Positions 33,662 through 48,385 of a stretch of DNA of 64,000 nt are shown one piece after another (position 1 is the stretch's first letter; every line of letters starts with the position of its first letter). A model generated the notes under the pieces. The model worked only from the letters and a program-made list of their open reading frames with translations, was not told where the DNA came from and did not search any database. Source of the DNA: Candidatus Adlerbacteria bacterium (GTDB lineage: Bacteria > Patescibacteriota > Minisyncoccia > Phycocordibacterales > SBAW01); contig CAINNF010000012.1 in the NCBI GenBank assembly GCA_903851045.1, positions 37,189 to 101,188 of the forward strand. The letters run 5' to 3'. Made by a program: the position numbers and the translations under genes.

Positions 33662-33681
33662 TCACCTTTTTAGAAACACAA

Positions 33682-33713
33682 AAACACCACCCAACTCGGA
33701 TGGTGTTTTTTTG
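33682..33713 (+). terminator. Intrinsic terminator after tig.
   Basis: AACACCA-loop-TGGTGTTTTTTTG. Confidence 0.6.
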
Positions 33714-33978: not shown

Positions 33979-35532
33979 TTACTTACAAAGCCGCTCCCGC
34001 AGCTCAGCAAGTTTGGCGAATGGACTATCCGAGTTGGTTTCACCAACCCGGCCATCCTCCGAAGTATCGTCCACCTTGGGAGCTTGTGGCTCCCGTTTGG
34101 GTTTTACAGGAACAGTAGGTGACACCTGCTCCTGCCTTGCGGAAGCGACGCGAACGCCGCTTTCCGTCACCCACGAGCAGCCGTGAAGCTGCCCGAGCCG
34201 AGCGAGGGTTTCCCTTTGTTCGGGCGTGAGCCCGTCAACAGGAAGTTTGTGCACCACACCATCGCGCTCGGCATGCTCGCGGAACCCCTCCCACGAGAGA
34301 GACGCCTCCCTTGGGTACACATAGTCCCAGTGACGGGTATGTGTCCCCCGCTGGTGCGACCGAGAGTATTCGTCTCGGTCGTGCTCGCGCAGCGATCCGT
34401 CTGGACGGATAACGTACCCGCCCCCGTCGCCGCGCTGACTGCTCGTATGCACAAAAGCGGAGAAATCCGCGAGAGCACGACCAGACGCAACTGCTGCAGC
34501 CATCTGCTCGGCCTCTTCGGCTTTGCGTCTAGCTTCAGCTTCTTCTGCAGCCTGACGCCTTGCCTGCTCCTCGGCACGAACGCGAGCAGTCTCGAGCTGT
34601 TCGCGGAACTTCACCAGCTCCGCGACCGCATGGTTGCATACCTGTTCCGCCTCACTGCGCTGCCGTTTCCAGGAAAGCACGAAATAGGTCCGAGACCAGG
34701 ATGTATTTGCCTCGACCACGCCGTATACCTTGAGGTCGCGGCCATTTATGTCGCGGCCGTAGACAAACTCAACCAGTGGCGGAATCGTCGCCGTATGATT
34801 GGACGCAAAATCCGGCACAGAAACTTCCGGAAACTTCGCAGCCCGCCACACAGCATCATTCCATCCAGCAGACGTGAGTCCGCCAGATAAATCAACCTCA
34901 ACCAACGGGGCTGAAAGAAGCAACTCACCGTTCGCAACGCGAGTTGTGATGCTCGCGACCGCTTCGTCGGTGAGCTGCGGAACAGGGAAATTATATTCCA
35001 AGTCCCTGCCCTCTTGCCGCCGCGAGTAGAGATCGCCCACGAACGGCTTCACACCACCCGCAATCCAGATGAGTGGTTCGACCATACCCTTTGCGGGGGC
35101 ATGGTCGAACTGCTCGAAAACGAGCAGTGCAGCGGGCGAAAAGCGACTCGCATAGACTGAACCGTTAGAATGGAAGTAGTACGTCGAATACCCCTTCCAT
35201 GCATCGGGCACTAGCCCGAAACGAGCGGTAAGAAGCGCAGACGCTTCTTGTTCGCCGAACAGTGCACACGAGCGGAGGACCTCCGCTTCATGTGCAATTG
35301 CCTGTCGGACGGCCTTGCCCAGATCGAACCATGCATGGTTCGCCTGGTACATTGCTCTGCCCCGCGCGTCGCGCTTCTCTACCGGGACGAGCTCGACCCG
35401 GACGATCTGCCCAGGATCAACATCGCGCGGCAAGAAGACGATGCTTCCGCCGTGCGACGAGATGCACTGACGCGTCTCGTCGTACTTTTTCCCCTTCTCT
35501 GCAAGAAGGGTCGCAATAGGTGTGTCGGCCAT
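33979..35532 (-). CDS. Hypothetical 517-aa protein. N-terminal TRAM-like beta-barrel domain (paralogous to 38585..39322), a central coiled coil and an uncharacterised C-terminus. Last gene of the island operon.
   Basis: GGSIVFLPRDVDPGQIVRVELV resembles a TRAM domain (G.V.F.P...PGE.V.V.I). GAGGGAGGG RBS. ARRQAAEEAEARRKAEEAEQ coiled coil. Confidence 0.6.
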   Translation of the reverse strand: MADTPIATLLAEKGKKYDETRQCISSHGGSIVFLPRDVDPGQIVRVELVPVEKRDARGRAMYQANHAWFDLGKAVRQAIAHEAEVLRSCALFGEQEASALLTARFGLVPDAWKGYSTYYFHSNGSVYASRFSPAALLVFEQFDHAPAKGMVEPLIWIAGGVKPFVGDLYSRRQEGRDLEYNFPVPQLTDEAVASITTRVANGELLLSAPLVEVDLSGGLTSAGWNDAVWRAAKFPEVSVPDFASNHTATIPPLVEFVYGRDINGRDLKVYGVVEANTSWSRTYFVLSWKRQRSEAEQVCNHAVAELVKFREQLETARVRAEEQARRQAAEEAEARRKAEEAEQMAAAVASGRALADFSAFVHTSSQRGDGGGYVIRPDGSLREHDRDEYSRSHQRGTHTRHWDYVYPREASLSWEGFREHAERDGVVHKLPVDGLTPEQRETLARLGQLHGCSWVTESGVRVASARQEQVSPTVPVKPKREPQAPKVDDTSEDGRVGETNSDSPFAKLAELRERLCK

Positions 35533-35656: not shown

Positions 35657-37261
35657 TCAGAGGCGGTTGAATACCTCTTGTGCGTCGGCGTCGGAGAACG
35701 ACGAGGCACGAAGAATGTCGCCATCGCAGAACCTCTTGAGCGTGGCGTCGCTCGTATGGCCAACGTCGCAGAGAATCCCCACGACATTGACCCCACGCAG
35801 ACGCTTTTCTGCAAGAAATTCCGCCAGAAACGCCTCCGTGACATGGGCGTCGCCATCGGTGATGAAGGCAATGTCCGCTTTTTTGAGACCCTCAATCCGA
35901 ATCGTATTCATCGCGTCGGTGAGCGGACGCTCAAAGTCCGTACCCGATGCTTTGAGAAACGTTTCGGCGATCTCAAGGGTCTCTCTGGGCGAGAGTCGTC
36001 CACCTTTATACACACGGGTCACGTTTTTGGAATCACGTGCTCCGTAATGTATCCAAACGAACGATCTTTTGCGGAGTTTTGCATAGTATGCAAGTGCGAG
36101 CACTGTCGCCTTCGCCCACACCTGCTTCGCCCCTTCCATAGAACCGGAGCCATCTTCGCAGACCACCACCGGCCCCTCGCCCATTTTTTGCTTCGCCTCT
36201 TCGCCACGCAGACGAAGCTCGCCCCTGCTCCAGCGCGTGAGAGCTTTCGTACGGAGTGCAGGATGCGCGAGCGCAACAAGCTCGGAGGAGACCGCGCGTT
36301 TGATGTCGCGGCCCGTCTCAAACTTCGTCACGCGCACACCCTCGGCCTGCTCCTTGGACCGCGCCTTGCGAGCAGCGATCTTTTTGATTCGGCCGAGGAT
36401 TTTAGCGAAGTCCTTGAACGCTTTATTATTTTGTATGCGTTCAAGAAGGGCGAGAGCTTCGGGGATACCCTCACGGGTCAACTCCCCTTCCTCAAAGCCC
36501 CATGTCTGGAGGGTCTCCGACACCTCCTCGACCTTCTCTTTGGCTCGCTTCGCTGCGGCGAGGCCGAGGCGTGCGAGCTCTTGCAGTTTCTTTGCCGCTG
36601 CTTCGCTCCCGGGTTTCCCCATCAGCGATTCGGCGGCGGCATCGGCTTGCGCCTGCGCAGTATCAGCTGCCGCACGAGCAGCTTGCGCCTGTGCACGTGC
36701 CTCTGCCGCTTGCGCGGAGAGACCGGCTGCTTGTGAAGAGGGTTGCCCCGCCCCGCCAGCAGATTGTGCTTGCTCGGCCAATTCGCCGAGCATATCAGCC
36801 TCAGCTTCGGCCTTTTGAGCTTCGGCCTCTGTCTCGTCCGCCGTATTTTGCGCGTCGGCGGACTCTTGAAGCTTTTTTGCATCCCCTTTCGACACATTCG
36901 CGACGATGGTGTCACCCATCGTGAGCGTGCCAAGGATGGACGCGAGCTCCGAGAACCGCGTCTGCGCATGGAGCCCCTCGTAGGCGGATGTCGCCATCGC
37001 GCCTTTGAGAATCTCCGCGAAGAAGCTCCGGTCGCTCGGCGCATCATCGCGCACCACAGGCGTTGCCGCCCAAAGCACGTGATAGATGTCGGCGAGCGCG
37101 CCGGCAGTGCCGGGGAGCTTCTGCTCCCCGGCAGCCTCGAGTTCGGCAAGTGCGGGCATACGCTCGCGTTGCCGGAGGAAGCGGAGCGCCGTGAAGGCGT
37201 CCGCGTCTGTCACGAGCAGCTTTTGCAAGTCTGCCCGCGACAGTGTCTTCGGTGCCTTCAT
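35657..37261 (-). CDS. vWA-domain protein (CoxE-like; C-terminal von Willebrand A domain with MIDAS). Partner of the upstream MoxR ATPase.
   Basis: VVVCEDGSGSM (DxSxS) ... ITDGD MIDAS motif. Ala/Gln-rich coiled-coil N-terminal half. The start is 8 nt after the MoxR stop, with a GGTAGGAGGGG RBS. Confidence 0.8.
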   Translation of the reverse strand: MKAPKTLSRADLQKLLVTDADAFTALRFLRQRERMPALAELEAAGEQKLPGTAGALADIYHVLWAATPVVRDDAPSDRSFFAEILKGAMATSAYEGLHAQTRFSELASILGTLTMGDTIVANVSKGDAKKLQESADAQNTADETEAEAQKAEAEADMLGELAEQAQSAGGAGQPSSQAAGLSAQAAEARAQAQAARAAADTAQAQADAAAESLMGKPGSEAAAKKLQELARLGLAAAKRAKEKVEEVSETLQTWGFEEGELTREGIPEALALLERIQNNKAFKDFAKILGRIKKIAARKARSKEQAEGVRVTKFETGRDIKRAVSSELVALAHPALRTKALTRWSRGELRLRGEEAKQKMGEGPVVVCEDGSGSMEGAKQVWAKATVLALAYYAKLRKRSFVWIHYGARDSKNVTRVYKGGRLSPRETLEIAETFLKASGTDFERPLTDAMNTIRIEGLKKADIAFITDGDAHVTEAFLAEFLAEKRLRGVNVVGILCDVGHTSDATLKRFCDGDILRASSFSDADAQEVFNRL

Positions 37262-37269
37262 AGCCCCTC

Positions 37270-38472
37270 CTACCGGCGGACGCCCGTCGCCTTCGCGACG
37301 AACTCCGCCTTCTTTTTGCCAACCTCTTTCCGCAGGTCGGCGATTGCGGTCTTATCGACCCCGCTTGCCTCACCTTCGAGACGACCGAGCTCGCGCTCGG
37401 TCTCCTCGAACTGCGCGAGCGCGGGAACCAGCTTGTTGCGGTCGCCGCCCTCGACGAGAGCGACCATGCCACCCGGCGCAAAAAGCGCGTCCACCTGCTC
37501 CTGCGCATCCGAGAGAGGCGTGCGCACGAGCGGGGCAATCTTCGCCTTCACGACCGGGATCTGCTCGGGAGTGTCCCAGAGCAGGTACTCGAGCACGCGC
37601 AGATCGGCAGAGCCGACCTGCGCACGCCCGTCGAGTATCGCCGACGCTTGCAAGACGTCGAATACCCGCCCGAATCGCCGATCGTCGTCCCAGAGCCACT
37701 GGAAACCGGCCGTGTCCTCGTCGAGCAGCTGCTGATACAAGTCGAGAACGAGCTCGACCATATCGTCAGCAACCTCGACGAACGGCCGCGCTTCCCGCAG
37801 CGTCTCGACTTCCGCGAGCGAAAGCCGAGCAGCGGCAGACACAGCAGCACCACGGTCGCGAACAAGTCGCGCCGCAACGAGCGACAGCTTTCCACCGCGA
37901 TCCAGCGGGTCCACCTGCACGCGGAGGGTCATTCGCGACCACATCGCGCCCAGGTTTCCTTCTGGGTCGGGCGGCTCGTTGCTGGCCGCGAGAAACGCGA
38001 GAAGCGGCGGCTTGAAGTCGCGCCCCTCGTGCCGGATTGCGTCCCCGTTCGCGAAGTCGAGAACGGTCTGGAGAACGCGCGGGTCCCCCTTCCATATCTC
38101 GTCCGCGAAGAAGAAATGTGCGTTCGCGGCGCGCCCGATCGAGTCACGCGTGCGAATGAGCTTGCGCCCCTCCGCGTCGACTGACTCCTCGATCGCGGTC
38201 TCTTCGACGAAGAGTCCCTCGAACGAGGTCATGGTCGGCATGAGAGCCCCGTAGTAGCGGGCACCCTCGATCACGCGCGACAAGTCCTTCACGGTGCCCG
38301 TTTTGTTGATACCGGGCGATCCGAGAAAGAACGCGGGGTGGCCGGCGACCGTCGCGAGCATCGTTGCCCGCACGATTGCCTCGCGTCCGATGTTGCGCGA
38401 AGCAACGTCGGCCCCGACAATCGCCACTTTCGGCGCGAGGCCTGTGGCGAGATTGAGAATTTCCTTATTCAT
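37270..38472 (-). CDS. MoxR-family AAA+ ATPase.
   Basis: Walker A GSPGINKT, Walker B FFFADEIWKG and sensor-1 AASNEPP in MoxR-type spacing. 400 aa. Confidence 0.85.
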   Translation of the reverse strand: MNKEILNLATGLAPKVAIVGADVASRNIGREAIVRATMLATVAGHPAFFLGSPGINKTGTVKDLSRVIEGARYYGALMPTMTSFEGLFVEETAIEESVDAEGRKLIRTRDSIGRAANAHFFFADEIWKGDPRVLQTVLDFANGDAIRHEGRDFKPPLLAFLAASNEPPDPEGNLGAMWSRMTLRVQVDPLDRGGKLSLVAARLVRDRGAAVSAAARLSLAEVETLREARPFVEVADDMVELVLDLYQQLLDEDTAGFQWLWDDDRRFGRVFDVLQASAILDGRAQVGSADLRVLEYLLWDTPEQIPVVKAKIAPLVRTPLSDAQEQVDALFAPGGMVALVEGGDRNKLVPALAQFEETERELGRLEGEASGVDKTAIADLRKEVGKKKAEFVAKATGVRR

Positions 38473-39322: not shown

Positions 39323-39346
39323 ATCTCCATCCTCTCCTTGCCCGTG

Positions 39347-39428
39347 ACCTAAGTCGTGGGCGTGGGTGCTGCGAACGTCCTTGCAGCTTGGTTGAAGATG
39401 TCCTCGCCATAATCCCGTCGAATCATGG
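39347..39428 (-). repeat. Leader repeat copy 2 (about 82 nt) upstream of the TRAM-like gene. Contains the imperfect palindrome CCATGATTC-gacg-GGATTATGG.
   Basis: Alignment with copy 1 shows a 12-15-nt indel and about 8 substitutions. Confidence 0.7.
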
Positions 39429-39627
39429 CGAGCCAACGCGTCGCTTTCGCGACACCGGTAGCCTGCATGCCTCCGATGCCGTGCTTGTGCGCCGCGATGG
39501 AGGCAAGGTCGAACGCGGCCGAAGGCGACTTATCCCGCGCAATGCCAATGCACTCCATACGGAGCGCCTCGGGCACCTGCGCGAGCACACCGGCACGAAG
39601 CTGGAGCTCATGCAGTGGACGAGACAT
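39349..39627 (-). CDS. Possible small ORF (92 aa) overlapping the HD-gene stop and reading through leader repeat copy 2. Doubtful.
   Basis: Start overlaps the HD stop by 20 nt. GC-rich region. The corresponding frame in copy 1 is closed. Confidence 0.25.
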   Translation of the reverse strand: MSRPLHELQLRAGVLAQVPEALRMECIGIARDKSPSAAFDLASIAAHKHGIGGMQATGVAKATRWLAMIRRDYGEDIFNQAARTFAAPTPTT

Positions 39628-40132
39628 GCTCGACCTCCCGCAAAAGCTCCTCGATTAAGGGCGCGCCATCCGGATCGATCTCGTACCACAGCGGCAGCGC
39701 AGACCGAATCTCCGCAAGCTTGCGCTCACGGAACTCAGGTGGCGCGTGCCGCAGAGTGTTGAGATTGTCCAGGCGGTCGGACCGCTTCACAGTGACCGCT
39801 AAGCAGCCACCGACGGCCACGCGACGAAGATACACTGCATCCGGCTCCTCTTCCTCCTCGTGGCTTAATGCACGAACGACCCGCGCCACTCGCTCGCCGA
39901 ACTGCTCGGCAAGCGCAGCATCCGTCGTGTCCGTATCCTCGAGCACATCGTGCAAGAGGGCGGACACAATGAGATCCTCAGCATCACTGCCGAGGAGCCC
40001 GTTGTCGCACGCGAATTGCGCGGCAATAAGCGCCACGCGCATCACGTGCTCAATCTGGGACTCGCCGCCGGGGCGGGTTTGTCCCTTATGTCCCACTTGC
40101 GCGAACGCAAGCGCTGCGGGAATTTTATTCAT
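39608..40132 (-). CDS. Stand-alone HD-domain hydrolase of Rel/SpoT type (small-alarmone-hydrolase-like), 174 aa.
   Basis: HVMRVALIAA...ALLHDVLEDTDTT...EQFGERVARVVRALSH matches the ppGpp-hydrolase HD domain of RelA/SpoT/Mesh1 (RVA...ALLHDVVEDT...FG..VA.LV.GVTK). Start MNKIPAAL at 40132 with a GGAGA RBS; the ORF track over-extends to 40519. Confidence 0.7.
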   Translation of the reverse strand: MNKIPAALAFAQVGHKGQTRPGGESQIEHVMRVALIAAQFACDNGLLGSDAEDLIVSALLHDVLEDTDTTDAALAEQFGERVARVVRALSHEEEEEPDAVYLRRVAVGGCLAVTVKRSDRLDNLNTLRHAPPEFRERKLAEIRSALPLWYEIDPDGAPLIEELLREVEHVSSTA

Positions 40133-40241
40133 AGGTCTCCTCGTCCCTATCAACCCGCGAATGATCCGCGAGCTGAATAAGTCTGGCGAACGCACACGGT
40201 ACCACCGCGCACGCTCGCCAAAAAACCAAGAACCAGTTACT

Positions 40242-41975
40242 TCACCACGGGCACCGTGTCGTTTCGGTGCCCGAGATGACCTCTTCTGCGTCCCATATAA
40301 GGGCGTTTTCGTTCCAGAACGTGGCGGAAGTCTTGTCCGCGTTCCGGTCCCACGGCTCAGCGGGACACCGTGTCCCGATGAAAGCCGTGAGGAGAACGTA
40401 GGCACCGCCGGTGGTGCGCTTGACCAGCACCACCACCCGCGAGCACGGCTCGGGCTTCCGGTTTTTGACGAACCGGGTGAGCCCGCGACGATTCGGCCGC
40501 TGGGCATAGACGATTTCATCCGCGCTAGTTGTCGCGACGCGGATGTTTTCGCCGACGACTCGCCCCATGTCGAGTTCGGCGATAACGACCTCGCGGCTGT
40601 CCGAACTCATCATACTGAGTGCCTCAGCGAGGCACGGAAGCACGCTCGAGTGCGTGGCGACGTGACTATCTTTCACGTCGACCACAAATTCACCCGACGC
40701 AAGCCGTCCCAAAATGGGGACGCCCCAGCGCAAAAGATCGAACGAAACCGGGAAGATTTCCCCGACCTTTTCGTCCGGGCCGGCGACGACAACCGCCGGT
40801 CCAGCGAAGGGGTACGCCTCGTCCCACAGCCGCCCGCCGAGGGTAGGCTGCGCCCGGCCGGACTCAACCGGCCAGAACTGCCCCACCCACGGACAGCCCG
40901 CGCGCGCGTAGGCACGCACGAGTGTCGCATGGAGCCACATCGGCGGGCCGTCGTTTGCGACGACGGCCGGCCGTGAGGTGTCCACACCGGGCGGCACCAG
41001 TTGCCGCAGGTCATCCACCGTGATGAAGCGCGTATTGCGCCACTTCACCAAAGTGAATTCGGGAAGTGCGAGCACTTCCCACTCGACACCCGGACAAAAG
41101 CCCGAGCCCGACGGCGTCACTTCGGGGATACGGATGTACCCCTTGCTGACGTCGTAGAGCTCGACTGCGCCCGAGAGTCGGGCGGCGTAGGCCGAGGCCA
41201 GAATCGCCGCGCGGGCGTTGTACACTCGCACGGTTTCGAGTTTGTTTGCCGCACGCGCCAAGACGAGTGCCGGACGCAGATGCGCCGGACGCACGCCAAG
41301 AAATGGATCGTGCGCATCGTCAACGCCAAGCCGCGTCAACAGTGACGCGACATTAATGTTGGCGATGAGCTCTCCATTCGTGATCTCTCCGTTTTCACGG
41401 ATGATCTCACGAAGACGATTCACAACCGCGTCGAGCGTGGGCGACTGGATAGTCTGCCCACGCTCGAGTCCCGAGATCCGCCCGCGGACGACGCCGTCGC
41501 CGCGGTCGACATACAGCTCGCAGGTGCCGTGAAGCACACTGTCGAGCTCGGCGAGCACGGCGACATTGCGCGCAGCAGCAAATTGCCGCCACGCAACGAC
41601 TTCATCCTGCTTGGACGAGAGGATGATGCACGCGTCGCATGCATCAAAAATCCTCTCGTTCGCCTCGGAGCGAACGCCGCCGGTGTCTACCAACACCAGC
41701 GGTTGTTCGTTGGCTTTGATGGCCTCCACCATCGAGCCAACGAAGTTTTCCGTGAATTTTCCCTTTTGCCGCACCGCGGCGACCAAGACTTGGTCGCCAA
41801 AGTTACTCCAGTGCCACTCCCCATCGGGGGCGGCAAAGGCCAGATAGAAGCTGTCTGGCGGCAGCTGGCACATCAACTGCGCCAAGAATACGGACTTGCC
41901 GCTGTGCGGCGGCCCGCAGACGATGACACGCCGCATGGCGCTTCTCCTCTCTTTGTTTGTGTGAACCTTTATCAA
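40242..41975 (-). CDS. 577-aa protein: an N-terminal P-loop NTPase/kinase-like domain (about 150 aa) fused to a large uncharacterised C-terminal domain.
   Basis: Walker A VIVCGPPHSGKSV and LVLVDTGG (Walker B/G3-like). The C-terminal 400 aa have no recognised motif; the ELD..K / VVLVK stretch could be nuclease-like. GAGAGGAGAAG RBS. Confidence 0.6.
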   Translation of the reverse strand: MIKVHTNKERRSAMRRVIVCGPPHSGKSVFLAQLMCQLPPDSFYLAFAAPDGEWHWSNFGDQVLVAAVRQKGKFTENFVGSMVEAIKANEQPLVLVDTGGVRSEANERIFDACDACIILSSKQDEVVAWRQFAAARNVAVLAELDSVLHGTCELYVDRGDGVVRGRISGLERGQTIQSPTLDAVVNRLREIIRENGEITNGELIANINVASLLTRLGVDDAHDPFLGVRPAHLRPALVLARAANKLETVRVYNARAAILASAYAARLSGAVELYDVSKGYIRIPEVTPSGSGFCPGVEWEVLALPEFTLVKWRNTRFITVDDLRQLVPPGVDTSRPAVVANDGPPMWLHATLVRAYARAGCPWVGQFWPVESGRAQPTLGGRLWDEAYPFAGPAVVVAGPDEKVGEIFPVSFDLLRWGVPILGRLASGEFVVDVKDSHVATHSSVLPCLAEALSMMSSDSREVVIAELDMGRVVGENIRVATTSADEIVYAQRPNRRGLTRFVKNRKPEPCSRVVVLVKRTTGGAYVLLTAFIGTRCPAEPWDRNADKTSATFWNENALIWDAEEVISGTETTRCPW

Positions 41976-42110
41976 GCCAACCCCGTTTCACTGGGACGAG
42001 CTTGAGCAAGGTCTCGAGCCGGTTACCAACCAGCTCGAGGACCAAACCGAGTGAGCGTGCCGTGCCACGCTCACCAAACCGTTAACACCTACAACACGGG
42101 CAAGTGAAGA

Positions 42111-42536
42111 TTACGATTTCTGGAGGATCTTCACCTCCACCCGCGTGTACGTGACGTACACGCGGAACTGTTCGAAGCGCTCGCCGAGCTTGGCGGCGTA
42201 CGATTCGACGAGCACGGCCCAGTCCTCGTCGGACAGATTCGCCGCGTAGAGCGGCGACTTGTCGGACGTCAAGACGAGCGCCGGCTCGTGCTCGCCGTGC
42301 CAGCCGTCGCCAGTCGGGTAGGCGTAGGTGATCACCGAGTCGGTGACGATGAACGGAACGAACGGCTTGCCGGCAGCGCCGTCCTGCTTGTACAGGTCGG
42401 TCAGAAAGGCGAGGACCTCGCCCTTCTCCTGCGCGAATCCGGTGTAACCCTTCTTCAGACCGAGGTTGATCTCGGCCCGAATCGTGTTCCTGGCATGACC
42501 GACGTTGCCGTTCTCGGTCGGGATCGAATAAACCAT
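42111..42536 (-). CDS. Hypothetical protein (141 aa from the MVYSIPTEN start).
   Basis: Perfect AAGGAGG SD 7 nt before the ATG at 42536. The ORF track starts at 42572. Confidence 0.5.
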   Translation of the reverse strand: MVYSIPTENGNVGHARNTIRAEINLGLKKGYTGFAQEKGEVLAFLTDLYKQDGAAGKPFVPFIVTDSVITYAYPTGDGWHGEHEPALVLTSDKSPLYAANLSDEDWAVLVESYAAKLGERFEQFRVYVTYTRVEVKILQKS

Positions 42537-42731
42537 GAGTGTCCTCCTTAAGGACGTTTGGGGTATTGGCATGATTGCCTCACCCTTTCAAACAGTCGTG
42601 TATATGCAACGACACACAACAACTTGAAAGGGTGCACGAATGGGTACCAGCCATTCGTGCGAAAACCTGTACCAACGCGCCATACCGCGCTGATGCTATT
42701 AACCTTGCTCCTTATATGGAGGAGTTTGCCG

Positions 42732-43130
42732 TCAGGCCCGGACGAGCCGGGTGACGGCGTAGACCTGGCCGTCCGCCGTGCGGACGACTCCGTCCCGCGG
42801 GCCGGTGCCGGGGATGAAGACATCCTCGCGTGCGGCCACTTCGGGCCGCCCGCCGACGAGGGCGGAGACCAAGTAGACGGTCCCCTCCTCGGGCTCGGGC
42901 AGCCCCTCCACCGCACCATACGCGGTGCGGTCGAAGGTGGGCACACCGCCCAGGTCGGGCAGGCGCCCGCCTGGCGTGGTCGAAACCCGCGCGGGCGCGG
43001 GCCTGCCGTCCGCGCCAAGGCGCGGCAGGACGACGATGTCGGTCTCGTCCGGCTTCGGCGCCGTATTGGCGGCGTTCATCCGCAACCGGAGCGGGTGCGG
43101 GTTCAGGTTGAGGAACTTGACGTCGATCAT
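42732..43130 (-). CDS. Hypothetical protein (132 aa), Pro/Gly-rich. First gene of the island operon.
   Basis: GAGGGGG RBS before ATG (MIDVKFLNL). Confidence 0.5.
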   Translation of the reverse strand: MIDVKFLNLNPHPLRLRMNAANTAPKPDETDIVVLPRLGADGRPAPARVSTTPGGRLPDLGGVPTFDRTAYGAVEGLPEPEEGTVYLVSALVGGRPEVAAREDVFIPGTGPRDGVVRTADGQVYAVTRLVRA

Positions 43131-44019: not shown

Positions 44020-44949
44020 GTAATCCTCCATTTGGAGACCTCGTCCATCCCACACCCATGACAGTGCGGCGAGGCGGCCTTGCGGCCATGTTTGTGTGCC
44101 CGGGCAACGTGACACTGCACGAATTGGCGCGATGAAGGCGCCAACGGCCCGGTTTTAGTCAGCGTGACACTGCACGCGGGATCGCTCTTCTTTCGAAGTG
44201 CACATGCGACCCCTCTTTCCGGTTCGACTTCCCTCGATAAATCTCGGGATAAATCGCTCACCGTAAACGGCAAACGAACATTCAAGCCGGAGAAGAGGAA
44301 TAACATTGTGATTATCTGCTTTCGCAGAAAGTTTTTTCACGTTTTCCTGTTCTACCTATGGCATCCAGACACACTGTTTAGGAGCGATCTGGAAGAATTT
44401 TGTCAAAGACCTTTCCTTCAGGCGGCCGTGGCCTTGGCGAAGGAGCCCTCTCTATGAGGACATTTCTAAGCATGAAAGCTGGTTTAGGTCTTTCGTGCTC
44501 AGCCGATGTCTCCCCGAGCCTTTGGCTCGGGACCCCGCAAAGCTCGTGAGAGCGCAGTGGGGCCAAAACAACGTTCGATACAGCTGGCTTCTCGCCCTAC
44601 TCTCACGGCTGGGGACCCATTTGCGGAGGTGCCATGCCCGAGAGACCGTATCTGCAAATAGAGATTTATTTCGAGCCGCCTCTCATCCCCACTCTCTCCT
44701 CTTTCTACGCTTAGCCGCTTTGCAGCAGGGGCCGTAGTACCCTCCCGGCGAGCCGGGACTAGAGGTGGGGGACGATTCGAATGAAACCTCCCGTCTATGA
44801 TGAACTCTTGCTTCGGGCTATTCCCTCGGCATCTGACAACATCTTAGCATTTTCATTGCCAAGTGTCAAGCCATGTGTGGCAAATAATCGTTCTCGTGTC
44901 ACGCAAAATACCCTTGATTTGTATGTATTTTATACGAAATAAGGTTTTA

Positions 44950-44991
44950 TTTGTCACAGAAGCTTGACAAATCAACCCCTACGAGTATACT
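44950..44991 (+). promoter_or_regulatory. Promoter plus palindromic operator of TrmB paralog 1.
   Basis: TTTGTCA-cagaagct-TGACAAA palindrome overlapping the -35 TTGACA. A 16-nt spacer, then -10 TATACT, then 6 nt to the ATG (near-leaderless). Confidence 0.55.
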
Positions 44992-44997: not shown

Positions 44998-45840
44998 ATG
45001 GATACCAAAGAACTTTCGTATGGTCAGAGCTTGGTCGAGGCAGGTTTGACGAAGGACGAGGCGCTCGTCTACGAGACCCTCGTGCTGCGCGGCCCACTCC
45101 AAGCTGGCGTATTAAAGCGGCATGTTCCTCTCTCCCGCCCGCTGGTATATAAGGTGCTAGGGACACTTGAGGCGGCTGGGTTAGTCGAAAAAAGGGATGA
45201 ACCCGGCAAAGTCGCCGTCTTCGCCCCCGCGCATCCGCTGAAGTTACAGGAGTTGGTCGAGAGGCGCTTCGACGACGCTCAAAATGCAAAGTCCTCTCTC
45301 GAGGGAGCAATCTCGCGACTCATCTCCGACTTCAACCTCGTTTCGGGTAAGTCGGGTATACGGTTTTATGAGGGTACAGACGGCGTGCGTGAAGTACTTA
45401 ATGACGCACTCACAGCAAAGACCGAGATACTCGCCTATATAGACATCGAGACGGTGGAGCGCGAGATGGGGGAGGCAAGCAAAGCGTTTGGTATCGCTCG
45501 CAAAAAACGCGGCCTCCACAAGCGCAACATCGCCGTCGACACACTCGCTAACCGAGCACTCGTTGACCAAGAATATCTTGATGACATAACTAAAGAGCGG
45601 CTTATCCCTTGGTCAACGCCCACATTCAGTGTCTCGACGCAGATATACGACGATCGTGTGTCATATCTCACATTCGGCGCCCAGAAGATCGGCGTCATCG
45701 TCAACGACCCAGCAATTGCCGCCATGCATCGCGGGTTATTTGAGTTGGCGTGGAGTCACCCGAGCGCATATGTACCAAAGACTCACGCAGCTAAGGCAAG
45801 CGGCTCAGCTACTGACGACAACCGCTCGAATGCAGCATAA
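44998..45840 (+). CDS. TrmB-family transcriptional regulator (paralog 1).
   Basis: N-terminal winged HTH (LTKDEALVYETLVLRGPLQAGVLKR...LVYKVLGTLEAAGLVEK) plus a TrmB-like C-terminal domain. Confidence 0.8.
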   Translation: MDTKELSYGQSLVEAGLTKDEALVYETLVLRGPLQAGVLKRHVPLSRPLVYKVLGTLEAAGLVEKRDEPGKVAVFAPAHPLKLQELVERRFDDAQNAKSSLEGAISRLISDFNLVSGKSGIRFYEGTDGVREVLNDALTAKTEILAYIDIETVEREMGEASKAFGIARKKRGLHKRNIAVDTLANRALVDQEYLDDITKERLIPWSTPTFSVSTQIYDDRVSYLTFGAQKIGVIVNDPAIAAMHRGLFELAWSHPSAYVPKTHAAKASGSATDDNRSNAA

Positions 45841-46694
45841 TACTTTTGTGTACCCGACTCGTCCTGCTCCATGAAATAGCGCGTTAATACCATCCTGTCG
45901 TGCAATAAAGTTGGAAAATCTGGTACAGTCTCGCTCGCCACAAACTGCGTGAGCACAGAGCGCTCGCCGCGAGCAGCTCGCTCCATGATGTCTTTCCTCG
46001 ACAAACGTTTTGTTGCGAACAGATTGCCTTCGCGCCGCTCTAGAGCAAGTGTTGGCTCGCCCTGGTCTTCGAAACGGTGCGTAGCGTAAAAGTTGTAGTC
46101 CTCGAAGTATTTGCTCACGATAGGGGTGCGCACAATGTCGATGTCCGACTCTGCGACCAATACCGAACCCTTTTGTTCTTGGTCGATGCCTTGCTCCATC
46201 ACCGCCTGACCAAGCATGCCTCCCTCGAATGACTGACTGGTGAGAAACGAGGCGAGATGCTTCTTGGGGAGTTCGTCTTCACTGGTGCCGACTTGCTCGG
46301 CTGAAAAGTAACAAGCGATCTGCCCTTTATAGCGGTAGATATAGAACGTGGTTTGCTCACTCCCGAGCGCCTTTTCAAATTGTGCTCGCAACTCATGCTC
46401 CAACTCTGCGCCATACTTCCCCGCGTAGCGATATTCCCAAATGTGCCGCATATCTGTACGATTAACCTCCTGAAGCTGTGCCGCGTTGACACTTTCGAGC
46501 GTACCATCTCGCACTTGCTCGAGCGATAATTGGTTGCGTGTTTTGAGCACACGACACGCGTCGGTAAACAGCGCAATGTCTGCTTGCACCGACTGCGCGA
46601 GCGCCACCAGTCGCTCGGGTTCGTCTTTGTACGTGTGCGCATCAGCAAGTAGCTTGCGTGCGCGGTTAAGTTGTCGCTCAACTACCGCACCCAC
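45783..46694 (-). CDS. Hypothetical protein (303 aa). Its 3' end overlaps the TrmB-1 3' end by 58 nt.
   Basis: Long ORF with lower GC than its surroundings. Its start overlaps the upstream gene's stop by 13 nt, suggesting translational coupling. Confidence 0.55.
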   Translation of the reverse strand: MGAVVERQLNRARKLLADAHTYKDEPERLVALAQSVQADIALFTDACRVLKTRNQLSLEQVRDGTLESVNAAQLQEVNRTDMRHIWEYRYAGKYGAELEHELRAQFEKALGSEQTTFYIYRYKGQIACYFSAEQVGTSEDELPKKHLASFLTSQSFEGGMLGQAVMEQGIDQEQKGSVLVAESDIDIVRTPIVSKYFEDYNFYATHRFEDQGEPTLALERREGNLFATKRLSRKDIMERAARGERSVLTQFVASETVPDFPTLLHDRMVLTRYFMEQDESGTQKYYAAFERLSSVAEPLALAA

Positions 46695-48385
46695 GACGCC
46701 TGTGTCCTGCGCACCAAACGACTCGGCAAATAAGTACCCATAGTATCAACAGACTCTATGAGCGAACTGTACGCCGCAAAGACCGCGTGCGCCTGCTCGG
46801 GTGCTGTCGTGTGTGCAAACTCAAACACTTTATCCCGTAATGTCGGATCTTGTTCAGTGACGAGAAAGGTACGCAGACCATCTACGCCGAATGAGTGGGT
46901 GAATTCTTTTGTCGATTCAGCGTCCTGTACAGATACGGTCTTTAAATACTGCAACATGCGGAACTGTTCATGTAGTGTGAGGTCAGCGAGCGTACACCCA
47001 AATTCGTTTTCTATCGTCTTTCGCACTGGCCTCGTGAGCATATACTCAAAGTCGTGCTCGGCGATCTTCGCTTGCTCTAAATCCATCTCCCCATCCTTGG
47101 TCTGAAGTACGAGATCACGAGCATCTACTTTATAGGTAAAAAGTGCCGCAATCGCAGTTTGCGTCTCTTGATACTGATCCCATAATTGTCTATTTGGTGT
47201 CCAAATTATTTCGTGTTCACCCTGTGCTATAGCCGCATCAACCAACTCTTGTGGAGGCTGGAGTTGCCCACGCAACTCACGGAGTCGAAACAAGAGCCCC
47301 TCTACTTTTCCACGCGTCTCTCCTTCAATTATGTATAATCCATCTGACTTATGAAACCCAAGAACTCCATTCGATACCTCGAACGGTTCACCATCATTAT
47401 CAGGCAACGTGTCGTGCTTCTCCATGCGATCATATAGTTGGCGAGCACGCATATTGAGTAGGTAACTACCTTCCCTGTGTTCGACTGCGCGACGCAGCGA
47501 AGACGATATCGCTCGCGGGACAGCTTCTTCCGAAAAACTCCAGTGCGAACCCTCGCGATGTAGATGTCGCAACAACTCGAGAAAGTGGCCAGTCTGTGAG
47601 TAATTCTGTGGATTGTTAAAATCAAGACTACGAAGTATTGCGGCTTCATACCGTGGACCCCAATGAAATGAAAAAATATAATTTAGTGATGCAACGCCGC
47701 TAGTTCGTAGTGAAGGATGTACATCATTTCTCCAATATATGTCAGCCACTTCCTCGATAAGTACGTTTGGGTCGATCAGTTGGCCGTTCTGACCAATAGC
47801 ATCATCCATCTGCTGCATAGCCCATACCGCACGACGGTCTTTAGAAAAATGCGGATCTTTCATTGCGGCATACAAAGCGCGATACGCCTTTGAAGTAAAC
47901 GAGTCTCGGGATATCTTCCCTCCGCGAGCAAGGTTAAACCCAACATGATGCGCATCGGCACTATGTTCTGTACAAAACTCTATTGCTTTGTGCACCATCG
48001 TGTCTACCTCTTCTTGAGAAAGGTGGTTGAGAAACTCGCCGCTGTATGGCAACCCACGAAATAATTTCTGTGTAATTTCTTCTGGTGAACTGTCAACAAT
48101 CCACTCACGAACTATGTTCAATTGTTCGCGTTCTACTTTCGTTAATTCGGGTTCTACCTCTTCTTGTCGTTGAGACTCCTGCTGTACTAATTCGTGATTA
48201 CGAGGAGGGACGAGTTGTTTCTCCAACAACGTCTTTGACTTCTTCGGCGCTCCACCAGGCATTTTCATATCCTCTATGCTACCGCGAAATGATGAGGTGC
48301 AAAATAGTTCTTTCTTGCTTTCGTCCTTTCCTTGTCCGCCGAAGTCTCGACGAAGGGGGTTAGACTCATCAGCATAGATACACAT
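46682..48385 (-). CDS. Hypothetical protein (567 aa, or about 527 aa from the internal MKMPGG start).
   Basis: Long ORF of about 47% GC with no recognised motif. Confidence 0.55.
   Translation of the reverse strand: MCIYADESNPLRRDFGGQGKDESKKELFCTSSFRGSIEDMKMPGGAPKKSKTLLEKQLVPPRNHELVQQESQRQEEVEPELTKVEREQLNIVREWIVDSSPEEITQKLFRGLPYSGEFLNHLSQEEVDTMVHKAIEFCTEHSADAHHVGFNLARGGKISRDSFTSKAYRALYAAMKDPHFSKDRRAVWAMQQMDDAIGQNGQLIDPNVLIEEVADIYWRNDVHPSLRTSGVASLNYIFSFHWGPRYEAAILRSLDFNNPQNYSQTGHFLELLRHLHREGSHWSFSEEAVPRAISSSLRRAVEHREGSYLLNMRARQLYDRMEKHDTLPDNDGEPFEVSNGVLGFHKSDGLYIIEGETRGKVEGLLFRLRELRGQLQPPQELVDAAIAQGEHEIIWTPNRQLWDQYQETQTAIAALFTYKVDARDLVLQTKDGEMDLEQAKIAEHDFEYMLTRPVRKTIENEFGCTLADLTLHEQFRMLQYLKTVSVQDAESTKEFTHSFGVDGLRTFLVTEQDPTLRDKVFEFAHTTAPEQAHAVFAAYSSLIESVDTMGTYLPSRLVRRTQASWVR

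What the first reader, a model, noticed from the sequence alone, without database searches (positions are those of the whole stretch)
40242..41975. 577-aa protein combining a kinase/GTPase-like P-loop domain with a 400-aa domain of unknown function.
The N-terminus has GPPHSGKS (Walker A) and LVLVDTGG (a Walker B/G3-like motif), which reads as a polynucleotide-kinase or small-GTPase-like module. The C-terminal 400 residues (...VVVAGPDEKVGEIFPVSFDLL...AELDMGRVVGENIRVATTSADEIVYAQRPNRRGLTRFVKNRKPEPCSRVVVLVK...) match nothing I recognise. Within a MoxR/vWA/HD neighbourhood it is the most likely effector or sensor of the putative system.
Basis: inference. Interest (0 to 1): 0.55.

Follow-up and report, generated by a model that had tools for sequence, protein, structure and literature searches.

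The report
P-loop, dead Csx3, unknown RNA-linked domain
This gene from a tiny-genome (CPR) bacterium fuses an NTP-binding switch, a CRISPR-type Csx3 domain that has lost its catalytic residues, and an unannotated domain also found in giant phages next to their tRNA genes, which points to an undescribed RNA-directed system rather than a CRISPR accessory or a housekeeping enzyme.

Summary
The ORF is real. It lies on the minus strand and starts at the ATG at 41936, giving 564 aa rather than 577. The "400-aa unknown domain" is three domains, so the protein has four:
- aa 1-175: GTPase-like P-loop.
- aa 176-282: small alpha/beta domain.
- aa 283-403: Csx3/Crn3-fold domain (TM 0.83-0.87 to AfCsx3).
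- aa 404-564: domain "X".

The first three domains match the CRISPR type III accessory family AAA-Csx3 (C3a67, E=1e-44). However, the Csx3 domain lacks all three family-invariant histidines and the cA4-binding loop. The 64-kb window holds no CRISPR array, cas gene or cyclase.

X matches phrog_23674 and has no Pfam or NCBIfam family. At least 1,324 protein clusters carry it, mostly as stand-alone 160-aa proteins in Patescibacteria. It also occurs in jumbo phages inside their tRNA clusters. Elsewhere X is fused to a tRNA-binding domain, a cold-shock domain or a 2H phosphodiesterase.

Across CPR genomes X travels with a divergent TrmB regulator, a GNAT-containing protein and a MoxR-vWA pair. AAA-Csx3 and X occur fused, split or reordered.

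Best reading: an NTPase-gated, RNA/tRNA-directed component of an undescribed CPR system, not a ring nuclease. The fold and chemistry of X remain unresolved.

The parts
40242..41936 (-). Target gene, 564 aa plus stop: P-loop / mid / Csx3-like / X fusion protein
   Evidence: ORF; ATG start supported by the SD motif, homolog N-termini and independent gene calls; AF2 model pLDDT 91.8, pTM 0.86
41944..41948 (-). Shine-Dalgarno AGGAG, 7 nt before the ATG at 41936
   Evidence: read directly from the sequence
41412..41936 (-). aa 1-175: P-loop NTPase, GTPase/SIMIBI-like. Walker A G8-S15; invariant P37-D38-G39-E40, R56, K58; Walker B/G3 D84-x-G86-G87; R159
   Evidence: PADLOC PDLC01515 E=1.2e-37; Foldseek hits to MinD, MeaB, HypB and SRP; profile nearest FtsY, G-alpha and UreG, none significant; invariants
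41091..41411 (-). aa 176-282: small alpha/beta 'mid' domain shared with all AAA-Csx3 proteins; function unknown
   Evidence: covered by PADLOC C3a67 profile positions 7-351; confident AF2 secondary structure; found with the local HMM in split-gene homologs
40728..41090 (-). aa 283-403: Csx3/Crn3-fold domain that is catalytically degenerate. H57->R341, H60->A344, H80->Gly/gap, SGRG loop->NDGPP, ~22-aa insertion at the D69-P-R71 site
   Evidence: Pfam PF09620 22.3 bits (cut-off 21); PDB 6yud/3wzg E=4e-4; Foldseek TM 0.83-0.87, rmsd 2.0; residue columns against the definitions in PMC7371418
40245..40727 (-). aa 404-564: domain X (phrog_23674 family, no Pfam/NCBIfam). Invariant in 45/45 family members: D420 S424 H425 H429 T469 R480 R483 T487 R488 K491 T517 E527 D530. 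H544 is kept in 40/45 and is Asn here
   Evidence: boundary from where the 400-aa AAA-Csx3 proteins end; phrog_23674 E=3.7e-23; 1,324 cluster representatives; invariants
39608..40132 (-). HD_4/HD phosphohydrolase, 174 aa, immediately downstream of the target
   Evidence: Pfam PF13328 E=1.2e-13; gene call; conserved after the target in L001, L003, L010 and L023
39349..39627 (-). 92-aa ORF, unknown
   Evidence: gene call; a small ORF occupies the same position in L001 and L003
38585..39322 (-). 245-aa protein, unknown; paralogous to the N-terminus of the 517-aa protein
   Evidence: gene call; BLASTP E=1e-11; no Pfam, PADLOC or PDB hit
37270..38472 (-). MoxR-type AAA+ ATPase (bpMoxR clade), 400 aa
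   Evidence: Pfam PF20030 E=1.1e-17, AAA_lid_8, AAA_5
35657..37261 (-). vWA-domain partner of MoxR, 534 aa
   Evidence: weak VWA_CoxE E=5e-4, below the cut-off; 41-62% identical homologs carry VWA_CoxE/VWA_2 hits
33979..35532 (-). 517-aa protein, unknown; last gene of the cassette
   Evidence: gene call; homologs in L001, L003, L010, L014 and L061; no Pfam, PADLOC or PDB hit
33680..33710 (-). terminator-like hairpin (14 pairs plus T-run) after the last cassette gene
   Evidence: consensus scan only
42111..42536 (-). 141-aa ORF upstream of the target, unknown
   Evidence: gene call; weak homologs in L003 and L014
42732..43130 (-). 132-aa protein matching PADLOC 'Unk_01: unknown small protein, sometimes fused to CARF'
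   Evidence: PDLC01138 E=6.3e-11; 68% identical homologs in L001 and L010
43645..44031 (-). 128-aa ORF, first gene after the promoter-like site; unknown
   Evidence: gene call
44841..44869 (-). sigma-70-like promoter site (TTGACA-17-TAAGAT, TG) pointing into the cassette
   Evidence: consensus scan only
44964..44991 (+). sigma-70-like promoter site (TTGACA-16-TATACT, 11/12) just before the TrmB gene
   Evidence: consensus scan only
44998..45840 (+). TrmB-family transcription regulator, divergent from the cassette
   Evidence: Pfam PF01978 E=5.4e-12; a TrmB homolog lies upstream of X in 20/32 loci
45783..48385 (-). Protein 'A', split here into 567-aa (46682-48385) and 303-aa (45783-46694) ORFs. 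The 303-aa part carries a GNAT-like acetyltransferase region
   Evidence: family profile vs PDB 4mbu E=1.5e-5; profile coordinates of the two ORFs; upstream of X in 16/32 loci; L074 homolog has a weak Acetyltransf_1 hit

Best explanation
The gene encodes a four-domain protein specific to Patescibacteria (CPR). The domains are a GTPase-like P-loop NTPase, a small alpha/beta domain, a Csx3/Crn3-fold domain that has lost the ring-nuclease active site, and a C-terminal domain X that belongs to a large unannotated family.

It is the Rosetta-stone fusion of modules that other CPR genomes encode as separate adjacent genes. It is one component of a TrmB-controlled operon with an HD phosphohydrolase and a MoxR-vWA chaperone-type pair.

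Most likely mechanism (inferred): X is the working end and acts on RNA, probably on tRNA or RNA ends. The Csx3-like domain no longer cleaves cyclic tetra-adenylate. It serves as a ligand or RNA-end sensor and/or as an oligomerisation platform. The P-loop domain hydrolyses NTP to switch or load the assembly. MoxR-vWA remodels or gates the complex.

I lean towards an RNA-damage response, repair or quality-control role over a suicide (abortive-infection) role.

Shown: the domain composition, the loss of Csx3 catalytic residues, the absence of CRISPR context, the operon conservation, the fused/split variants, and the RNA-related fusions and phage tRNA-cluster position of X.

Inferred: the substrate, the chemistry, the direction of signalling and the biological role.
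For: Architecture:
- PADLOC AAA-Csx3, E=1.3e-44 over aa 4-352.
- AfCsx3 fold, TM 0.83-0.87.
- Confident AF2 model, pLDDT 91.8, pTM 0.86.
- X matches phrog_23674, E=3.7e-23.

Not a ring nuclease:
- H57->Arg, H60->Ala, H80->Gly/gap; the cA4-contact loop SGRG is replaced by NDGPP; an insertion sits at D69-P-R71 (against PMC7371418).
- No repeat array and no cas or cyclase Pfam hit anywhere in the 64 kb.

Functional linkage of the modules:
- Fused in L001-4, L010, L011 and L014.
- Split as [P-loop-mid-Csx3][X] in L020, L022 and L032.
- Reversed order in L028.
- [X][AAA-Csx3][X-fusion] in L061.

Conserved neighbours of X over 47 loci: TrmB 20/32, protein A 16/32, MoxR 19/42, vWA-type partner 19/42. 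The same core carries Pfam labels in L074.

RNA link of X:
- Fusions to tRNA_bind (E=1.5e-27), a cold-shock domain (27.8 bits, cut-off 27) and tRNA-ligase-type 2H CPD (26.4 bits, cut-off 23).
- In three phage groups the gene lies 24-900 bp from tRNA genes, inside the tRNA cluster.

Enzyme-like conservation in X: H425, H429, D473, R480, R483, R488 and E527 are invariant from phages to CPR.

Operon signals: divergent promoter-like sites between TrmB and the cassette, and a terminator-like hairpin after the last gene.
Against: - No fold or family assignment was obtained for X. There was no PDB hit by sequence profile, no Foldseek PDB hit for that domain among matches with E<0.01, and HHalign probabilities below 1% against barnase, RNase A, RNase T1 and RelE.
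- The RNA link rests on a few fusion proteins (1 + 3 + 2 of 149 representatives) and on gene position in phages, not on any assay.
- In CPR genomes X is not tightly linked to tRNA genes.
- The window protein has Asn at H544, a position that is His in >=90% of the wider family, so this particular X domain could have altered or reduced activity.
- The Csx3-like domain might still bind cA4 or another cyclic nucleotide made elsewhere in the genome, and I could not scan the whole genome.
- bpMoxR-type MoxR-vWA pairs were described in conflict systems (PMC7159879), which favours a defence reading over repair.
Confidence: 0.4

Rival explanations
1. Anti-phage (abortive-infection type) effector. A nucleotide or RNA signal is sensed by the Csx3-like domain. 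The P-loop and MoxR-vWA act as a threshold switch. X is a toxic RNase-like effector that shuts down translation by cutting tRNA or RNA. Phage copies of X would be decoys, competitors or co-opted enzymes.
For: - The AAA-Csx3 and Unk_01 families are known from type III CRISPR accessory sets (PMC6546367).
- The MoxR belongs to the bpMoxR clade, described in NTP-dependent conflict systems where MoxR-vWA gates variable effectors, and Csx3 itself was seen there as an effector domain (PMC7159879).
- The cassette shows modular shuffling and sits in different chromosomal contexts.
- GC is raised over the cassette.
- PF18431 (CdiA-CT RNase A) is the only Pfam family hit weakly by several X members: 6/94 plus P0122, all below the cut-off.
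Against: - No signal-generating enzyme (Cas10, CD-NTase, other cyclase) lies in the locus or the window.
- Stand-alone X without any obvious immunity partner is very common and syntenic in small CPR genomes, which is unusual for a toxin.
- Phages carry stand-alone X inside their tRNA clusters, where repair and maintenance genes are typical.
- Fusions to tRNA_bind, CSD and 2H CPD resemble processing or repair enzymes.
- The RNase A-like signal is sub-threshold and HHalign does not support it.
Confidence: 0.25
2. Metal-centre or protein-complex maturation system. The P-loop is a G3E/SIMIBI-type metallochaperone GTPase. X, rich in invariant His, Asp, Glu and Cys, is a metal-binding or client domain. 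MoxR-vWA inserts the cofactor, as CoxD/E, NorQ/D and CbbQ/O do.
For: - Foldseek's nearest P-loop neighbours include MeaB, HypB and Cfd1, and the profile touches UreG.
- MoxR-vWA pairs are classical maturation chaperones (established knowledge; the CoxD/E origin is noted in PMC7159879).
- X has invariant D420, H425, H429, D473, E527, D530, a near-invariant E558, and a C-terminal C-P-W motif.
Against: - No G3E signature motifs or significant matches; the best E-value is 0.02.
- There is no candidate metalloenzyme client in the operon.
- The RNA-related fusions and the phage tRNA-cluster position of X are unexplained by this model.
- The C-terminal Cys motif is absent from phage X.
Confidence: 0.08
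3. Ordinary type III CRISPR accessory: an AAA-Csx3 ring nuclease (Crn3) that degrades cA4 to switch off CRISPR signalling, as several source databases label homologs.
For: - PADLOC C3a67, E=1.3e-44.
- Pfam Cas_csx3 just above the gathering score.
- Csx3 fold confirmed.
- Some homologs are named 'CRISPR-associated protein Csx3' or 'ring nuclease Crn3/Csx3' by JGI or NCBI.
Against: - The three histidines reported as absolutely conserved in the family (H57, H60, H80) are all absent, and the cA4-binding loop is replaced.
- NCBIfam TIGR02579 scores 22 bits against a cut-off of 55.4.
- No CRISPR array or cas gene lies in 64 kb.
- Homologous loci show MoxR/vWA/HD, not cas genes.
- The extra X domain and the CPR-wide X-MoxR-vWA core are unexplained.
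Confidence: 0.04

Closest known systems
C3a67 'AAA-Csx3' type III CRISPR accessory family (Shah et al. 2018, PMC6546367; exemplar Caur_2269; PADLOC PDLC01059)
   Same: The same N-terminal P-loop, mid and Csx3 domains in the same order, covering aa 4-352 at E=1.3e-44. About 57 shorter (~400-aa) relatives at 28-43% identity end exactly where X begins.
   Different: - Carries an extra 160-aa C-terminal domain X.
- The cA4-contact loop SGRG, kept by the ~400-aa relatives, is replaced by NDGPP.
- Not next to CRISPR-Cas; instead in a TrmB/HD/MoxR/vWA operon in CPR genomes.
- The family itself has no experimentally known function, only the hypothesis of a cOA-regulated ATPase.
Crn3/Csx3 ring nuclease (AfCsx3, AF_1864; PDB 3wzg, 6yud)
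   Same: The fold of residues ~283-400 (Foldseek TM 0.83-0.87, rmsd ~2 A, 24% identity) and the conserved 'P-x-W-L' helix start.
   Different: - H57, H60 and H80 (the Mn2+/'H60 face') are absent.
- The S44-G45-R46 loop is replaced.
- A ~22-aa insertion interrupts the D69-P-R71 segment.
- It is embedded in a 564-aa multidomain protein rather than being a ~100-aa stand-alone dimer.
MoxR-vWA-centred NTP-dependent conflict systems (Kaur, Burroughs, Iyer, Aravind 2020, PMC7159879)
   Same: A bpMoxR-clade AAA+ ATPase (PF20030, E=1e-17) directly followed by a CoxE-type vWA protein, in a variable, modular gene neighbourhood. That study recorded Csx3 as an occasional effector domain.
   Different: - None of the described third components (VMAP, iSTAND, FtsH, beta-propeller fused to vWA) was detected by Pfam in the cassette.
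- Here the constant partner is X, with or without AAA-Csx3.
- The hosts are unicellular, reduced-genome CPR bacteria, whereas three of the paper's four MoxR-vWA classes are significantly associated with multicellular lineages (its Table 1).
phrog_23674 (PHROGs v4; e.g. GAP32_368 of Cronobacter phage GAP32, CDS0166 of Pseudomonas phage Milchi)
   Same: Homologous to domain X over nearly its whole length (E=3.7e-23; 37-41% identity by tblastn) with the same invariant H, H, D, R, R, R, E, H set.
   Different: - The phage proteins are stand-alone, lack the C-terminal G-T-E-T-x2-C-P-W tail, and sit in tRNA clusters.
- Their function is unknown; they are 'hypothetical protein' in every record.

Membership tests
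Crn3/Csx3 ring nuclease | Csx3 fold (sequence and structure match to AfCsx3) | tested here: met
   Pfam PF09620 22.3 bits vs cut-off 21; PDB 6yud E=4.4e-4; Foldseek TM 0.83-0.87, rmsd 2.0-2.3. NCBIfam equivalog TIGR02579 scores only 22.1 vs cut-off 55.4.
Crn3/Csx3 ring nuclease | Histidines H57, H60, H80, 'absolutely conserved' and needed for Mn2+-dependent cA4 cleavage (PMC7371418) | tested here: not met
   Aligned positions are R341 (near-invariant Arg), A344 and Gly/gap in all 45 full-length family members.
Crn3/Csx3 ring nuclease | D69 / R71 catalytic pair on the cA4-binding face | tested here: inconclusive
   The segment is interrupted by a ~22-aa insertion (F-W-P-V-E-S-G-R...). A near-invariant E358 and a mostly conserved R361 lie in it, but equivalence cannot be decided without a structural superposition of side chains.
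Crn3/Csx3 ring nuclease | cA4-contacting loop S44-G45-R46-G-P-I49 | tested here: not met
   Replaced by N-D-G-P-P-M in the window family. The ~400-aa AAA-Csx3 relatives keep S-G-R-G-P-H.
Crn3/Csx3 ring nuclease | Genomic association with type III CRISPR-Cas | tested here: not met
   No repeat array. No cas or cyclase Pfam hit in the 64-kb window or in +/-10 kb of homologs. The rest of the genome could not be scanned.
Crn3/Csx3 ring nuclease | cA4 cleavage activity | not testable with these tools
   Needs biochemistry.
C3a67 AAA-Csx3 (PADLOC PDLC01059) | Profile match across P-loop, mid and Csx3 domains in that order | tested here: met
   E=1.3e-44, protein 4-352 against profile 7-351/382.
C3a67 AAA-Csx3 (PADLOC PDLC01059) | Encoded adjacent to type III-B/A cas cassettes (the basis on which the family was defined) | tested here: not met
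   As above. Even the ring-nuclease-annotated relative P0081 sits among housekeeping genes.
P-loop NTPase (GTPase-like, SIMIBI-type) | Walker A GxxxxGK[ST] plus Walker B/G3 hhhhDxxG, conserved in the family | tested here: met
   In G8-PPHSGK14-S15 and LVLVD84-T-G86-G87, residues G8, S12, G13, K14, S15, D84, G86 and G87 are invariant or >=90% conserved. Foldseek hits MinD, MeaB, HypB, SRP and FtsY with TM 0.3-0.46.
P-loop NTPase (GTPase-like, SIMIBI-type) | Guanine-specificity motif [NT]KxD | tested here: not met
   The 'SKQD' at aa 108-111 is not conserved in the family; the consensus is 'SSxxEE'. Nucleotide preference is therefore open.
   No PNK among PDB Foldseek hits with E<0.01 or profile hits with E<1. 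The only PNK was a BFVD hit at E=0.27.
(D/E)xK catalytic motif | tested here: not met
   D456 is conserved in 26/45 members and K506 in 29/45, with non-conservative replacements. No Pfam hit.
phrog_23674 / domain X family | Profile match over the whole ~157-aa domain, with the invariant H-H-D-R-R-R-E(-H) set | tested here: met
   E=3.7e-23, protein 19-147 against profile 14-149/157. Invariants. The last His (H544) is Asn in the window protein.
MoxR-vWA ternary conflict systems (PMC7159879) | bpMoxR-type MoxR adjacent to a vWA protein | tested here: met
   PF20030 64.2 bits vs cut-off 27. The vWA hit is weak in the window but clear in homologs at 41-62% identity.
MoxR-vWA ternary conflict systems (PMC7159879) | A defining third component (VMAP, iSTAND, FtsH, or beta-propeller fused to vWA) | tested here: inconclusive
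   No such Pfam family hits any cassette protein. The 245-aa, 517-aa and small ORFs remain unassigned and were not modelled.

The most novel reading that the evidence does not exclude
Domain X is a previously unrecognised RNA/tRNA-processing or repair enzyme fold shared by Patescibacteria and jumbo phages. X with MoxR-vWA, plus TrmB, a GNAT protein and optionally a degenerate AAA-Csx3 sensor and an HD phosphohydrolase, is a new class of RNA-damage sensing/repair or RNA-targeting conflict system. In it a CRISPR-type Csx3 fold has been exapted as a non-catalytic sensor outside any CRISPR context.
Probability: 0.3. Interest if true: 0.8.

Novelty: new variant of a known kind. Interest (0 to 1): 0.6.

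Why it matters
- **Annotation.** Databases label these proteins 'CRISPR-associated Csx3 / ring nuclease'. Here the Csx3 fold has lost the ring-nuclease residues and sits in genomes and loci without CRISPR-Cas. Such labels, and any inference of cOA signalling in CPR bacteria, would be misleading.
- **An uncharacterised domain.** The fusion and its split-gene variants point to a large domain family with no Pfam or NCBIfam model (>=1,324 clusters at 50% identity). It has an enzyme-like invariant residue set, is shared by reduced-genome CPR bacteria and jumbo phages, and has circumstantial links to tRNA. That gives a concrete, testable candidate for new RNA biology. The phage copies come from cultivable phages of Cronobacter, Erwinia, Serratia, Pectobacterium, Yersinia and Pseudomonas.
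- **A system rather than a gene.** X recurs in about half of the sampled loci with a TrmB regulator, a MoxR-vWA pair and a GNAT-containing protein. This suggests a conserved multi-component system in a phylum where most conserved unknowns have no functional hypothesis at all.

Tried and rejected
- **Single-sequence AF2**: pLDDT 37, discarded.
- **Foldseek vs BFVD**: nothing significant, and not even the phage X homologs, so it is uninformative for X.
- **X profile vs PDB sequences**: only a motif-level match (S-x2-FW-x2-HA-[LIV]-V) to two apicomplexan proteins of unknown function, 4fbd (E=0.04) and 2pd0 (E=0.7). The one paper found on 2pd0 offers only a pocket-similarity guess of purine binding. 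Kept as a lead, not evidence.
- **PF18431 (bacterial RNase A-like CdiA-CT)**: hits 7 X proteins weakly, all below the cut-off. HHalign to RNase A, barnase, RNase T1 and RelE gave probabilities below 1%. Not adopted.
- **X as a diverged copy of the protein's own domains**: rejected.
- **PD-(D/E)xK and polynucleotide kinase**: rejected.
- **CRISPR arrays or tandem repeats in the window**: none.
- **Rfam on 33-50 kb**: only a sub-threshold hammerhead hit.
- **Tight tRNA linkage of X in CPR loci**: not seen, only shared synteny.
- **The search for related loci with the full-length alignment**: failed for lack of a conserved stretch, so the X alignment was used instead.
- **Literature**: no hits for phrog_23674 or Csx3+Patescibacteria. 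Burroughs & Aravind 2016 on RNA repair is not held.
- **Protein A, the 245-aa and the 517-aa proteins**: only a GNAT-like region in A was found.


Full report
**1. The observation**

The ORF at 40242-41975 exists, but on the minus strand. The 577-aa length counts from an upstream TTG. The real start is the ATG at 41936, which gives 564 aa. Three things support this:
- An AGGAG Shine-Dalgarno sits 7 nt upstream.
- All full-length homologs begin 'MRRxxVCGPPHSGKS'.
- Independent gene calls on identical contigs from an NCBI MAG (GCA_903945565.1), an ENA assembly and two SRA runs give 564 aa.

It is a real gene. GC3 is 0.75 against GC2 0.47, and 45 aligned full-length homologs at 52-91% identity cover it end to end.

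**2. Anatomy**

An alignment-based AlphaFold2 model is confident (pLDDT 91.8, pTM 0.86). The single-sequence model was useless. The protein has four parts.

(a) Residues 1-175 are a P-loop NTPase. Foldseek places it nearest SIMIBI-type proteins such as MinD, MeaB, HypB and SRP/FtsY. A profile of the domain touches FtsY, G-alpha, Der and UreG through Walker A plus D-x-G-G, none significantly. No polynucleotide kinase appears. PADLOC knows this domain as the 'Csx3-associated AAA' (E=1e-37).

(b) Residues 176-282 are a small alpha/beta domain present in all AAA-Csx3 proteins.

(c) Residues 283-403 have the Csx3/Crn3 fold. The evidence is Pfam (22.3 bits, cut-off 21), PDB AfCsx3 (E=4e-4), and Foldseek (TM 0.83-0.87, rmsd about 2 A). 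Parts a-c together match the type III CRISPR accessory family C3a67 'AAA-Csx3' at E=1.3e-44. Shah et al. defined that family by adjacency to type III-B cassettes and offered only a hypothesis of a cOA-regulated ATPase.

(d) Residues 404-564 ('X') begin exactly where the ~400-aa AAA-Csx3 relatives end.

**3. The Csx3 domain is not a ring nuclease by the family's own criteria**

Athukoralage et al. (PMC7371418) report H57, H60 and H80 as absolutely conserved. H60 and D69 are essential, the R71A and H80A variants are strongly impaired, and S44, G45, R46 and I49 contact cA4.

In the window family the aligned positions differ:
- H57 is a near-invariant Arg.
- H60 is Ala.
- H80 is Gly or a gap.
- The S-G-R-G loop is N-D-G-P-P.
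- A ~22-residue insertion interrupts the D69-P-R71 segment.

The shorter AAA-Csx3 relatives keep S-G-R-G but also lack H57 and H60. NCBI's equivalog model scores 22 bits against a cut-off of 55.

There is no repeat array in the window. No cas or cyclase family appears in the precomputed Pfam annotation of the whole 64 kb, which is otherwise housekeeping: ribosomal proteins, EF-G, PGK/TIM, RecJ, ComEC, RNase Y, ClpP and the CCA-adding enzyme. Homologous loci likewise show no cas genes.

**4. Domain X**

X has no Pfam or NCBIfam family and no sequence relative in the PDB. It matches phrog_23674, a 157-aa phage family of unknown function, at E=3.7e-23.

A profile search of 1.84 billion cluster representatives finds 1,324 members, 960 of them at E<1e-10. 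Of the 149 listed hits other than the query family's own representative, 145 carry a single X domain and 4 are tandem X-X. About 93 are stand-alone 140-200-aa proteins. A second search lists only ~155-165-aa 'hypothetical proteins' with no Pfam domain.

By organism, 46 genome loci are almost all Patescibacteria/CPR: Kaiser-, Sacchari-, Parcu-, Pacei-, Levyi-, Harrison-, Wolfe-, Moranii- and Nomurabacteria, among others.

Conservation looks enzymatic or like a tight ligand pocket. H425, H429, D473, R480, R483, R488 and E527 (protein numbering) are invariant from phages to CPR. H544 is kept in >=90% of the family, but the window protein and its two closest relatives have Asn there.

Fusion partners within the family are:
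- a Trbp111-type tRNA-binding domain (E=1.5e-27);
- a cold-shock domain, in three proteins;
- a tRNA-ligase-type 2H cyclic phosphodiesterase, in two proteins.

In phages, X occurs in GAP32/CBB/BF-like jumbo phages, in ~175-kb Pseudomonas phages, and on a third kind of IMG/VR contig. In every case a tRNA gene lies within 24-900 bp, inside the phage's tRNA cluster.

Attempts to name the fold failed. PF18431 (RNase A-like CdiA-CT) is the only family hit by several members, always below the cut-off. HHalign gives no support for RNase A, barnase, RNase T1, RelE or the protein's own domains. A motif-level match to two uncharacterised apicomplexan structures, 4fbd and 2pd0, is only a lead.

**5. Context**

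In the window all cassette genes are on the minus strand, in this order:
- a promoter-like site at 44869-44841;
- a 128-aa ORF;
- a 132-aa protein matching PADLOC 'Unk_01, sometimes fused to CARF';
- a 141-aa ORF;
- the target;
- an HD_4 phosphohydrolase;
- a 92-aa ORF;
- a 245-aa protein;
- a bpMoxR AAA+ ATPase;
- a vWA protein;
- a 517-aa protein;
- a terminator-like hairpin at 33710-33680.

A TrmB-family regulator is transcribed divergently from its own strong promoter-like site. Beyond it lies a large protein 'A', split here into 567-aa and 303-aa ORFs. Its C-terminal part has a GNAT-like region.

The target-HD-MoxR-vWA block recurs at 56-70% identity in different chromosomal settings. The same modules also occur in other arrangements:
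- split as [P-loop-mid-Csx3][X] in L020, L022 and L032;
- in reverse order in L028;
- as a stand-alone P-loop plus X in L021 and L023;
- as [X][AAA-Csx3][X-fusion]-MoxR-vWA in L061.

The window protein is therefore a Rosetta-stone fusion.

Around stand-alone X, BLAST with two exemplars gives lower-bound counts: a TrmB homolog upstream in 20/32 loci, protein A in 16/32, a MoxR in 19/42 and its vWA-type partner in 19/42. The commoner MoxR there is a RavA-like variant. L074 reproduces A(GNAT)-TrmB-X-bpMoxR with Pfam labels, next to the CCA-adding enzyme and UPF0102 as in the window. X also occurs without these neighbours.

**6. Mechanism**

What is shown: the domain composition, the degenerate Csx3 site, the absence of CRISPR context, the operon conservation, the gene fusion/fission, and the RNA-flavoured associations of X.

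What I infer is this. X is the working domain and acts on RNA, most likely tRNA or RNA ends. The Csx3-like domain has been exapted as a non-catalytic sensor or oligomerisation module. The P-loop supplies an NTP-driven switch. MoxR-vWA remodels or gates the assembly, as such pairs do in other systems. The HD enzyme may process a nucleotide or RNA end. TrmB controls expression.

I lean to an RNA-damage response, repair or quality-control role (0.40) for three reasons:
- Phages keep stand-alone X among their tRNA genes.
- X is fused to tRNA-binding, cold-shock and 2H domains.
- Stand-alone X without an obvious immunity partner is widespread and syntenic in reduced genomes.

The main rival (0.25) is an abortive-infection-type system with X as a toxic RNase-like effector. 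It is favoured by the bpMoxR clade, the two CRISPR-accessory families (AAA-Csx3, Unk_01), the modular shuffling and the raised GC of the cassette. A metallocentre-maturation reading (0.08) and the database label 'ring nuclease' (0.04) are less likely. The remaining probability is 'something else'.

**7. Novelty and verdict**

The N-terminal three domains belong to a known, though uncharacterised, family. The rest I could not find in the literature available here:
- the fourth domain;
- the loss of the Csx3 active site together with the CRISPR-free context;
- the CPR-wide X/MoxR/vWA/TrmB/GNAT association.

I file this as a new variant of a known kind. There is a 0.3 chance that X and its cassette represent a new kind of RNA-directed system.

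Noticed in passing
window 45783-48385 (-): The large conserved protein 'A', found next to TrmB and X in at least 16/32 loci, is split here into overlapping 567-aa and 303-aa ORFs. The 303-aa part holds a GNAT-like acetyltransferase region (profile vs PDB 4mbu, E=1.5e-5). The same split appears in independent assemblies. Elsewhere it is one ORF of 560-970 aa with no Pfam hit except a weak Acetyltransf_1 in L074.
   Followed up: partly
window 38585-39322 (-) and 33979-35532 (-): The 245-aa and 517-aa cassette proteins share a paralogous N-terminal ~190 aa (29% identity, E=1e-11). The N-terminal stretch 'G.IVFLP...PG..VRV.L....KR.A.G' looks like a TRAM-type RNA-binding barrel by eye, but Pfam, PADLOC and PDB sequence searches found nothing.
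   Followed up: partly
window 42732-43130 (-): A 132-aa protein matches PADLOC 'Unk_01: unknown small protein, sometimes fused to CARF' (E=6e-11). It is a second family known from type III CRISPR accessory sets, here without CRISPR. 68% identical copies lie upstream of the target homologs in L001 and L010.
   Followed up: partly
window ~34000-44000: GC content is 0.59-0.63 across the cassette against 0.47-0.57 in the rest of the window, although the core arrangement looks syntenic with other CPR genomes. Unexplained.
   Followed up: no
window 41937-42110 (-): The 174-nt leader before the target folds into three GC-rich hairpins (MFE -70 kcal/mol, z = -2.8 against shuffles). The sequence is not conserved in the equivalent gaps of L001, L003, L010 and L014.
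   Followed up: partly
window 48313-48398 (-): A weak Rfam Hammerhead_3 match (25.8 bits, gathering score 48.5, E=0.097) lies at the 5' end of the protein A gene. Probably chance.
   Followed up: no
window 56109-60729; L013, L014, L023, L027, L054: The same tRNA set, Gly(tcc)-Pro(tgg)-Gly(gcc)-Arg(tcg), recurs within 5-8 kb of X in five other CPR loci and 14-19 kb away in the window. It looks like conserved synteny, not a tight functional link.
   Followed up: partly
L061 7325-7972 and 9420-11234: In a Candidatus Uhrbacteria contig two X copies flank a 410-aa AAA-Csx3 gene. One of them is fused to a ~380-aa C-terminal extension with no Pfam hit. bpMoxR and vWA follow.
   Followed up: partly
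L003 8583-9233 and 9385-9726; L021, L023, L028: Some loci carry an extra stand-alone ~215-aa P-loop paralog of the target's N-terminal domain. L003 also has a stand-alone 113-aa Csx3 (weak Pfam hit) just upstream of the fused gene.
   Followed up: no
window 44998-45840, 50137-50889, 54874-55632: Three TrmB-family regulators lie within about 11 kb. Only the first is the one conserved next to X.
   Followed up: no
L008 1183-4575 (phage GAP32) and L007 4455-4955, 9123-10444 (phage Milchi): The neighbours of phage X are an R2K ATP-grasp protein and a generic AAA ATPase in GAP32, and an RNaseH_like (PF04308) protein and a DUF2828/DUF7788 'RNA-binding protein' in Milchi. No MoxR-vWA pair was detected there.
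   Followed up: partly
PDB 4fbd_A, 2pd0_A: The C-terminal X motif S-x2-F-W-x2-H-A-[LIV]-V also ends two apicomplexan structural-genomics proteins of unknown function (profile E=0.04 and 0.7). This may be remote homology and is worth a structural comparison.
   Followed up: partly
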